Program-made: the position numbers and the translations under genes | Shown: positions 26,312-27,100 of the stretch, one piece after another | Layout of the letters: each line of letters begins with the position of its first letter | Position numbering within the stretch: the first letter of the stretch is position 1 | The notes under the pieces: generated by a model | Told to the model about the DNA's origin: nothing | The model's input: the letters and a program-made list of their open reading frames with translations, nothing else | Database searches by the model: none | NCBI RefSeq assembly: GCF_001186125.1 | Contig: NW_014040124.1 | Coordinates: 14,710 to 67,978 of the forward strand | Length of the DNA: 53,269 nucleotides | Reading direction: 5' to 3' | Origin: Sphaeroforma arctica JP610 | Taxonomy: Eukaryota

Positions 26312-26700
26312 GCGGCAAATGTAGTGCTATTTAGGTAGGCCAACAACATTGCGCCCGTGTTCTAAGAAAGTCTCGCGTGCTGTACGTATGATCTCTACAT
26401 GAGAGTGTAACTGGCGTAGTGTTTGGTTGTAGTTCTTGGTGTTGGGTTGTGGTTTTTTAATATCGAGTTTGGCTAGAGTCTCACGCTAATTTTTGCGGCG
26501 AAATGATATGTTCCCGTAGAGGTGTTTATCGGTTTGATGCCAGGATTGCAGAAATGCGTCTTGAAGTGGTGCGTCATCGTTGAGTCCACAGTACATGGGT
26601 ACATACGCGTTGTCTTCGTTGGCGAATAAATCGATGTCTACTGTTCTAAAAACGTCTGTAACATGTCGTTTAAAGCGGTTCGGGTGTAGTATCCATTTGT
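26312..26700 (-). pseudogene. Dam-like methyltransferase domain within Copia pol (absent from the ORF track)
   Basis: Manual translation: KWILHPNRFKRHVTDVFRTVDIDLFANEDNAYVPMYCGLNDDAPLQDAFLQSWHQTDKHLYGNISF, a frameshift, then ...ETFLEHGRNVVGLPK*HYICR. Confidence 0.75.
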
Positions 26701-27100
26701 TATGGGAAGGTTTGGTGATTGTAGTAGAGGCTATGTTATTAGATCGTAGTGTCTCAGTACCTTTGGCTAATGAGTACTGGCCATGGGTATTGGGTATAGT
26801 GTGGAGTATAGTATTGTCCTTGAGTATATGACACTCTGTGGGTTTCTGGGCATCTATTTCTGGGGGGAAATTGATTCTGTACCCTTAGCGTTGTAGGAGT
26901 TGTACTGATAATATATTCTGCGTTGCTGTAGGCATGATGAGAACAGTCCCAAGTCCTGGTAGTGTACCGCGCTGAGTCAGGATAATTTGACTGTGATCGG
27001 GGAATTCGACAATAAAGCGACCGGTCTCTATATTCGTAACGCCTTCAGTAGTCGTGTGTATGTGTACCATCGCTCCCGAGACAATAAAGGAAGCGGTGAG
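26701..27100 (-). pseudogene. Copia protease and following region
   Basis: FIVSGAMVH (decayed DSGA motif)...QNILSVQLLQR*GYRINF...CHI...HGQYSL matches the Copia NLLSV...GY-x-V-x-F...GLY pattern. Confidence 0.75.

What the first reader, a model, noticed from the sequence alone, without database searches (positions are those of the whole stretch)
26312..27100. A Copia element carries the same MTase type in frame after its protease: MTase precedes integrase in both superfamilies
Seen: reading past one stop at 26885-26887, the Copia protease frame continues through GYRINF...HGQYSL into WILHP..F...VDIDLFANEDNA..P.YC...QDAFLQSW...LYGNISF, and after a frameshift TFLEHGRNVVGLPK*HYICR, matching the Gypsy MTase tail TFLKEGKKACGKTPW. 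Motif IV reads NISF here, so it is decayed or naturally inactive. Established: Copia order is PR-IN-RT-RH, Gypsy is PR-RT-RH-IN, and DIRS places the MTase after RNase H. Inference: the constant neighbour is integrase, implying an MTase-integrase module shared or independently gained by Copia and Gypsy. The direct MTase-integrase junction is deleted in this copy.
Basis: partly seen in the sequence, partly recalled or inferred. Interest (0 to 1): 0.93.

Follow-up and report, generated by a model that had tools for sequence, protein, structure and literature searches.

The report
Copia integrase split by adenine methyltransferase
This is a broken copy of a Copia-type jumping gene whose family carries a DNA adenine-methyltransferase-like domain inside the front end of its integrase, likely splitting the integrase's zinc finger, so the enzyme would travel with the integration machinery and could mark new copies as active chromatin.

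Summary
On the minus strand a Copia protease runs, past one stop, into a Dam-type N6-adenine methyltransferase relic in one frame. There is no frameshift: the tail is in the same frame. It is a family trait, not a local accident. Of 7 relatives found (all gene models that their sources name Sphaeroforma arctica), 4 join protease to Dam. One also reaches the same integrase core, with matching divergence from the window (protease 61%, Dam 61%, core 68%). The relatives refine the reading: Dam does not precede integrase. It starts 25-29 residues after the integrase His-His pair, where plain Copia has its Cys-Cys pair, and the Cys pair follows Dam. Gypsy elements in the window keep an intact finger downstream of Dam, so a shared MTase-integrase module is not supported; these are separate gains. 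Gypsy-Dam is in a 2026 preprint that never mentions Copia. The scan earlier noted Gypsy-Dam and Copia with a cytosine methyltransferase on other DNA; no listed note showed Copia-Dam. Limits: no intact element was seen, the relatives' DNA was not read, the zinc finger was not modelled, and activity is untested. New variant of a known kind.

The parts
27102..27202 (-). Stub of the Copia 5' LTR (first ~100 nt); rest of LTR, primer site and gag are deleted, so it abuts the protease
   Evidence: 96% identical over 100 nt to 15352-15451; ends and join
26771..27100 (-). Copia aspartic protease, decayed: active-site motif reads VSG, TAA stop at 26885-26887
   Evidence: tail matches plain Copia L005, 0 of 2000 shuffles as high; 35-61% to P0001/P0002/P0006
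26699..26770 (-). Linker that has lost, in frame, about 16-18 residues holding the integrase His-His pair seen in relatives
   Evidence: gap against P0001 and P0002
26312..26698 (-). Dam-type N6-adenine methyltransferase relic: DLFA near 26632, motif IV NISF 26512-26501, TAG stops at 26488 and 26329, one short in-frame deletion
   Evidence: fold of relative P0006
19687..26311 (-). Nested DAM-carrying Gypsy element lacking its 5' LTR; the same deletion took the Copia Cys pair and first part of the integrase core (inferred)
   Evidence: 75-86% to the second Gypsy copy at about 42078-49052; own Dam at about 22400-22850
19030..19686 (-). Copia integrase core (second Asp and Glu region) and SH3 domain
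   Evidence: 68% to P0001 280-341; PF25597 E 1.6e-12; L005 188-344, E 2.7e-8
18208..19029 (-). Solo Gypsy LTR inserted in the Copia integrase tail, TTGT on both sides
   Evidence: contigs that skip it (joint 18199-19032) in 4 of 4 runs
15505..18207 (-). Copia integrase-RT linker, reverse transcriptase and RNase H, frameshifted
   Evidence: RVT_2 E 1.2e-25 and 6e-9; L005 516-958, E 3e-53
15255..15461 (-). Polypurine tract and 198-bp 3' LTR with TG...CA ends

Best explanation
The stretch is a decayed copy of a Ty1/Copia lineage in which a Dam-type N6-adenine methyltransferase domain lies in frame after the protease and inside the integrase N-terminus, likely splitting the HHCC zinc finger, so that it would stay on the mature integrase and would methylate adenines in the new cDNA or its target site. 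Shown: the in-frame order PR - HH - Dam in 4 relatives, Dam - integrase core in P0001, Dam - CxxCxxGK in P0006, and co-divergence of Dam with its Copia flanks. Inferred from known Ty1 biology: the protease cuts ahead of the finger, so a domain inside it cannot be released without breaking the finger. Inferred from the tree and the shared C-terminal tail: the domain came once, likely from the co-resident DAM-Gypsy lineage. Borrowed from the 2026 preprint and untested here: 6mA on new insertions recruits host AMT1 and keeps them transcribed. Odds: family trait 0.9; position between HH and CC 0.75; enzyme active on DNA in the live element about 0.55.
For:: 7 hits among 1.84 billion representatives; P0002 matches across the PR-Dam join in one stretch (38%, E 1.7e-22). 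P0001 matches both 26935-26507 and the integrase core at 19685-19500; window to P0001 PR 61%, Dam 61%, core 68%; to P0002 35% and 42%; to P0006 36% and 26%; to 3 window Gypsy Dams 25-29%. PF13976 (integrase finger) weakly on P0002 214-256 and P0001 49-70, directly before Dam; second His to first Cys is 25 and 32 in two plain Copia references, second His to Dam start is 25-29 in 4 of 4 relatives, second His to CxxC is 194 in P0006. P0001 aligns collinearly to L005 from HH to core (0 of 1000 shuffles); the 5 Copia Dams form one group (82/87); the window lies in a starred 4-row group (95/95). P0006 residues ~186-350 model at pLDDT 70-90 and match phage DNA N6-adenine MTases (E 3.7e-8) and solved N6-adenine MTases (Z 9.8, rmsd 3.2, 133 aligned).
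Against: No intact PR-IN-RT-RH reading frame was found. All relatives are gene models whose DNA I could not read; P0001 and P0005 look spliced or frame-shifted across the Dam tail. The CxxC after a whole Dam is seen in one protein only (P0006). Its match to plain Copia (3 and 11 of 2000 shuffles) is no better than two chance matches in P0002 (5 of 2000 each), and the long-gap alignment of P0006 was not significant (313 and 48 of 1000). HH matches alone are weak (best 19 of 2000). PF13976 and Dam scores are all under their cut-offs. Neither model placed HH beside CC (pLDDT under 50). No Copia-type copy shows canonical NPP(Y/F/W): NISF, NIPF, NPIW, NQP, NIL. Related eukaryotic Dams gave no 6mA in E. 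coli (preprint). The window has no target-site duplication, so its two halves may come from two sister copies.
Confidence: 0.62

Rival explanations
1. Same anatomy, but the domain is no longer a DNA methylase in this clade: it binds SAM or DNA and steers or stabilises the integration complex.
For: 0 of 5 Copia-type copies with motif IV in view read NPP-aromatic; the preprint found no activity for related Dams in E. coli.
Against: DLFA and the Asn are kept in all 5; NIPY and NVPF occur in active Erm enzymes; all copies are decayed, so single changes say little.
Confidence: 0.17
2. The domain methylates RNA (the packaged genome, its cap, or the RNA-DNA hybrid during reverse transcription) rather than integrated DNA.
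For: Best solved-structure matches are PCIF1/CAPAM, KsgA, DIMT1 and Erm; the NIP motif is the Erm/KsgA type; the preprint itself raises hybrid substrates.
Against: Sequence and tree put it with DNA Dam families; best viral matches are named DNA N6-adenine MTases; M.TaqI and T4 Dam lie within 1-2 Z of the RNA enzymes (7.9, 7.7); no Foldseek PDB match reached E 0.001.
Confidence: 0.12
3. The segment is a fragment of a nested Gypsy or DIRS element that landed in frame in this one copy.
For: The locus is a nest of insertions and deletions, and a DAM-Gypsy starts right behind the segment.
Against: The same PR-Dam join occurs in relatives 35-61% identical; the domain is 54-61% like P0004/P0001 but 25-29% like the window's Gypsy Dams; a second copy of the Dam tail shows in 4 of 4 runs (variants at 26345 and 26380).
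Confidence: 0.04
4. A Dam-integrase module moved as a unit between Gypsy and Copia.
For: Copia and Gypsy Dams group together against one DIRS and two phage rows (87/91, not starred) and share a C-terminal tail.
Against: Both junctions differ (inside the finger in Copia, about 75 residues before an intact finger in Gypsy), and the Copia integrase is Copia-type.
Confidence: 0.03

Closest known systems
DAM-LTR retrotransposons, ichthyosporean lineage (Fernandez-Moreno et al., bioRxiv 10.64898/2026.05.21.726589; parts 1-4 of 5 read, supplements not seen)
   Same: Same short Dam domain (PF05869 type) in an LTR element; the lineage is reported from Sphaeroforma arctica, the name given to all 7 relatives found here.
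   Different: All LTR cases there are Ty3/Gypsy-like with RVT_1; 'copia' and 'Ty1' occur 0 times in the main text. Here the RT is RVT_2 and Dam lies inside the integrase N-terminus.
DIRS retrotransposons with Dam-like MT (example fetched: L001)
   Same: Same domain family, DLFA and motif IV region.
   Different: DIRS place it after RNase H and integrate by a tyrosine recombinase; this element has LTRs and a DDE integrase.
Plain Ty1/Copia elements (references L005, L006)
   Same: PR-IN-RT-RH order, TG...CA LTR, polypurine tract, RVT_2, SH3 after the core.
   Different: Their HHCC finger is continuous (25 and 32 residues); here a whole methyltransferase domain stands in that interval (194 residues in P0006). 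A plant screen saw no domain gain in Copia (PMC9289625, passages).
DNMT-carrying retrotransposons (de Mendoza et al. 2018, PMC5890265; passages)
   Same: A DNA methyltransferase captured into a retroelement polyprotein.
   Different: Cytosine enzyme, in LINE, DIRS and (per the preprint) Gypsy; the paper says Symbiodinium Copia lack a DNMT.

Membership tests
Ty1/Copia (Pseudoviridae) | Order PR-IN-RT-RH | tested here: met
   L005 maps in order at 19694-19209, 16855-16523, 16494-15565; PR at 27100-26771; two Gypsy insertions intervene
Ty1/Copia (Pseudoviridae) | Copia-type RT (RVT_2) | tested here: met
   90.9 and 36.3 bits, cut-off 31.6
Ty1/Copia (Pseudoviridae) | LTR with TG...CA ends and adjacent polypurine tract | tested here: met
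   198-bp 3' LTR; 5' LTR only a 100-nt stub
Ty1/Copia (Pseudoviridae) | Target-site duplication around the element | tested here: not met
   flanks of 5' stub and 3' LTR differ; decayed or composite copy
Ty1/Copia (Pseudoviridae) | Continuous HHCC integrase finger | tested here: not met
   deleted in the window; interrupted by Dam in relatives. This is the variant feature
Ty1/Copia (Pseudoviridae) | Protease catalytic Asp (D-S/T-G; motif recalled) | tested here: not met
   window VSG; P0002 NSG; P0003 and P0007 NSD
PF05869 Dam N6-adenine MTase | Pfam gathering score 28.1 | tested here: not met
   window 13.5; P0006 25.5; P0004 19.2; P0001 18.9; P0002 16.9
PF05869 Dam N6-adenine MTase | Rossmann N6-adenine MTase fold | tested here: met
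   relative P0006, not the window protein:
PF05869 Dam N6-adenine MTase | Motif IV Asn-Pro-Pro-aromatic | tested here: not met
   NISF in the window; NIPF, NPIW, NQP, NIL in relatives
PF05869 Dam N6-adenine MTase | Methylates adenine in DNA | not testable with these tools
   no assay; related enzymes inactive in E. coli per the preprint
DAM-LTR (2026 preprint) | Ty3/Gypsy-like RT (RVT_1) and organisation | tested here: not met
   RVT_2, Copia order
DAM-LTR (2026 preprint) | Dam domain in the eukaryotic TE Dam clade | tested here: inconclusive
   13-row tree, eukaryotic rows apart from 2 phage rows (99/97), only 1 DIRS row
DAM-LTR (2026 preprint) | 6mA enrichment on insertions; host encodes AMT1 | not testable with these tools
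   no genome or methylome held for the window
DIRS | MT after RNase H, tyrosine recombinase instead of DDE integrase | tested here: not met
   DDE-type core and SH3 follow; RNase H is followed by the 3' LTR

The most novel reading that the evidence does not exclude
A Copia lineage evolved an integrase whose zinc finger is split by a working DNA adenine methyltransferase taken from a co-resident Gypsy family. The methylase is thus a built-in part of the integration complex and writes 6mA on each new copy at the moment of insertion.
Probability: 0.4. Interest if true: 0.85.

Novelty: new variant of a known kind. Interest (0 to 1): 0.68.

Why it matters
It extends Dam capture to the second great LTR superfamily, which an RVT_1-centred screen would miss and which is said to gain domains rarely. 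The position is the useful part. A domain inside the integrase finger would have to travel with integrase into the nucleus, which turns the open idea that retroelement Dams pre-mark new insertions with 6mA into a test on one defined protein. It also suggests why isolated Dam domains showed no activity in E. coli, and that the HHCC finger tolerates an insert of a whole enzyme domain.

Tried and rejected
Word-index protein searches: none for the window ORF among longer proteins (41 candidates), none for A1 among 7996 longer candidates, only P0006 and P0001 among 6757 near-length candidates; weak evidence of absence. Contig scans: metagenomes gave nothing for P0001 and one DIRS for A2; 6 of 6 viral-contig scans gave nothing. 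PDB sequence searches found no relative. First fold (6 rows, mean pLDDT 36.6) was not searched. The protein atlas did not complete. A second read-laying on 26270-27215 did not complete, so the sister copy's junction and motif IV stay open. No RNA holder was listed, which is no evidence on expression. Summed contig depth (Copia and Dam bins near 1e3, Gypsy bins 1e5-1e6 in X1) is not a copy number and was not used as one. Test of whether P0001 158-232 is the Dam tail read in a shifted frame: weak (8 and 45 of 1000 shuffles). Tree: L003 dropped as near-identical to L002; P0005 left out as too short. Literature searches that listed no paper whose title or opening described Copia with Dam: (0 papers); most hits were seen as listings only, and subscription journals and Repbase are not covered.

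Full report
Observation. Translation of the minus strand from 27100 gives the protease, the TAA at 26885-26887, and then one open frame through GYRINF, HGQYSL, WILHP, VDIDLFA, DAFLQSW and LYGNISF. Pfam sees Dam only weakly (E 0.06). A profile of four Copia-type copies matches a profile of five Gypsy Dam pieces of the window at probability 95%, E 3e-8. A 582-nt contig of run X4 spans 26421-27002 without a difference, so the join exists as DNA.

The locus. Self-comparison and a plain Copia reference map a nest. On the minus strand it reads: 100-nt stub of the 5' LTR, protease, Dam, a break at about 26311-26285 into a Gypsy element that lacks its 5' LTR, the Gypsy 3' LTR ending at 19687, the Copia integrase core and SH3, a solo Gypsy LTR, then RT (RVT_2), RNase H, polypurine tract and a 198-bp LTR. 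One deletion likely removed the Copia Cys pair, the first part of the core and the Gypsy 5' end (inference). No target-site duplication was found, so the two halves could be from sister copies. Contigs that skip the solo LTR, and variants at 26345 and 26380, appear in 4 of 4 runs and show at least one sister copy with the Dam tail.

Relatives. A full HMMER search gave 7 proteins, all named Sphaeroforma arctica gene models by their sources. I did not determine the window's own organism; a close kin is likely (inference). P0001, P0002, P0005 and P0006 join protease to Dam (P0005 holds only its start); P0004 begins in Dam; P0003 and P0007 match the protease only. P0001 matches the window both at 26935-26507 and at the integrase core 19685-19500, which ties Dam to the core and through the window to RVT_2. 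Identity to P0001 is 61% in protease, 61% in Dam and 68% in the core. To P0002 it is 35% and 42%, to P0006 36% and 26%, and to three window Gypsy Dams 25-29%. The domain has aged with its Copia flanks, so it is inherited, not a local insertion.

Where the domain sits. The relatives keep a stretch that the window has lost in frame: WHDRLGH, HHARFGH, FHRSEGH, FHSINSH. Pfam's integrase-finger model PF13976 matches it weakly, under cut-off, in P0002 (E 0.064, profile 21-65 of 67) and P0001 (E 0.16). In two plain Copia references the first Cys follows the second His after 25 and 32 residues. In 4 of 4 relatives Dam begins 25-29 residues after that His. In P0006 CRVCVEGKM follows Dam, 194 residues after the His; P0005 skips from DLFA to CTRC. 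P0001 aligns in order with L005 from the His pair to the core (0 of 1000 shuffles). Against this: the Cys match (3 and 11 of 2000 shuffles) is no stronger than chance matches in P0002 (5 of 2000), the long-gap alignment of P0006 was not significant, P0006 has a lone His 23 residues before its Cys pair that P0004 lacks, and the DNA behind these models was not seen. So 'between HH and core' is shown in one protein, and 'between HH and CC' rests on order, spacing and two proteins. In a window Gypsy the intact finger starts about 75 residues after the Dam tail. The junctions differ, so no common module moved.

Origin. A 13-row tree (138 columns) puts the five Copia Dams on one branch (82/87, not starred), the window in a starred group of four (95/95), and Copia with Gypsy against one DIRS and two phage rows (87/91, not starred). 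Copia and Gypsy copies share a C-terminal tail that the DIRS row lacks. One gain from the co-resident Gypsy lineage is the likeliest reading, but a single DIRS row cannot exclude a DIRS donor.

Fold and catalysis. With 11 rows, P0006 residues about 186-350 modelled at pLDDT 70-90. They match phage DNA N6-adenine MTases (19 viral matches at E 0.001 or better, best 3.7e-8) and solved N6-adenine MTases (CAPAM Z 9.8, rmsd 3.2, 133 aligned; KsgA 9.1; M.TaqI 7.9; T4 Dam 7.7). Foldseek on PDB reached only E 1.3e-3. The HH and CC regions stayed under pLDDT 50, so the split finger is not modelled. Motif IV reads NISF here, NIPF in P0004, NPIW in P0006, NQP in P0002 and NIL in P0001. NIPY and NVPF are found in active Erm enzymes (PMC6787224, one passage), so Ile is likely the subfamily state and Ser likely decay.

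Mechanism. Ty1 integrase has an N-terminal HHCC finger, a D,D(35)E core and a C-terminal domain (PMC8487063, passages). That the protease frees integrase ahead of the finger is my own knowledge. A domain inside the finger would then stay on integrase, sit on the cDNA ends and reach the target. The preprint (parts 1-4 of 5 read; supplements not seen and may bear on novelty) reports more 6mA and more transcription on DAM-Gypsy copies in S. arctica, proposes that Dam marks the reverse-transcribed intermediate for host AMT1, and found no activity for isolated domains in E. coli. I take that model as most likely here; it is untested. Rivals are a non-catalytic binding role and an RNA or hybrid substrate.

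Novelty. DAM-Gypsy is known. The preprint's main text has 0 occurrences of 'copia' or 'Ty1' and classifies by RVT_1. Six further searches listed no paper on Copia with Dam (mostly listings). Earlier notes of this scan cover Gypsy-Dam, LINE-Dam and Copia with a cytosine MTase between protease and integrase on other DNA (8 of 44 notes shown); these are unchecked leads. Verdict: real, a new variant of a known kind, so far from one species' gene models and decayed copies only. Interest 0.68.

Noticed in passing
L005 (NZ_CP115302.1), L007 (NZ_CP115454.1), L006 (NC_015657.1): Three records filed as actinobacterial plasmids are eukaryotic Copia elements (two near-identical plant-like, one yeast Ty-like) with long pol frames; likely contamination or circular element DNA. 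Used here as plain Copia references.
   Followed up: partly
window 27082 and P0002, P0003, P0007: None of the 4 copies whose protease motif is in view has the catalytic Asp: Val in the window, Asn in three relatives from two diverged groups. Decay is likely, but a shared Asn is odd.
   Followed up: no
window 1970-2336, 11370-11750, 22400-22850, 45938-46350, 49676-50052: Five Gypsy Dam relics in three diverged groups, all with NPPW, between RNase H and integrase where both flanks were seen.
   Followed up: partly
window 40987-49052 (+): Second, fuller copy of the nested Gypsy family with both LTRs (83% alike) and no clear target-site duplication.
   Followed up: partly
window 27203-27500: The DNA just outside the 5' LTR stub draws very deep contig cover in all 4 runs, so it is another abundant repeat; not identified.
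   Followed up: no
L001 452-5013: Intact DIRS element from a metagenome contig: gag-RT-RH-MT in one 1254-aa frame, with an overlapping tyrosine-recombinase frame.
   Followed up: partly
window 34633-35361 (-): 242-aa open frame with several hydrophobic stretches amid TA-rich repeats; possibly part of a host membrane-protein gene.
   Followed up: no
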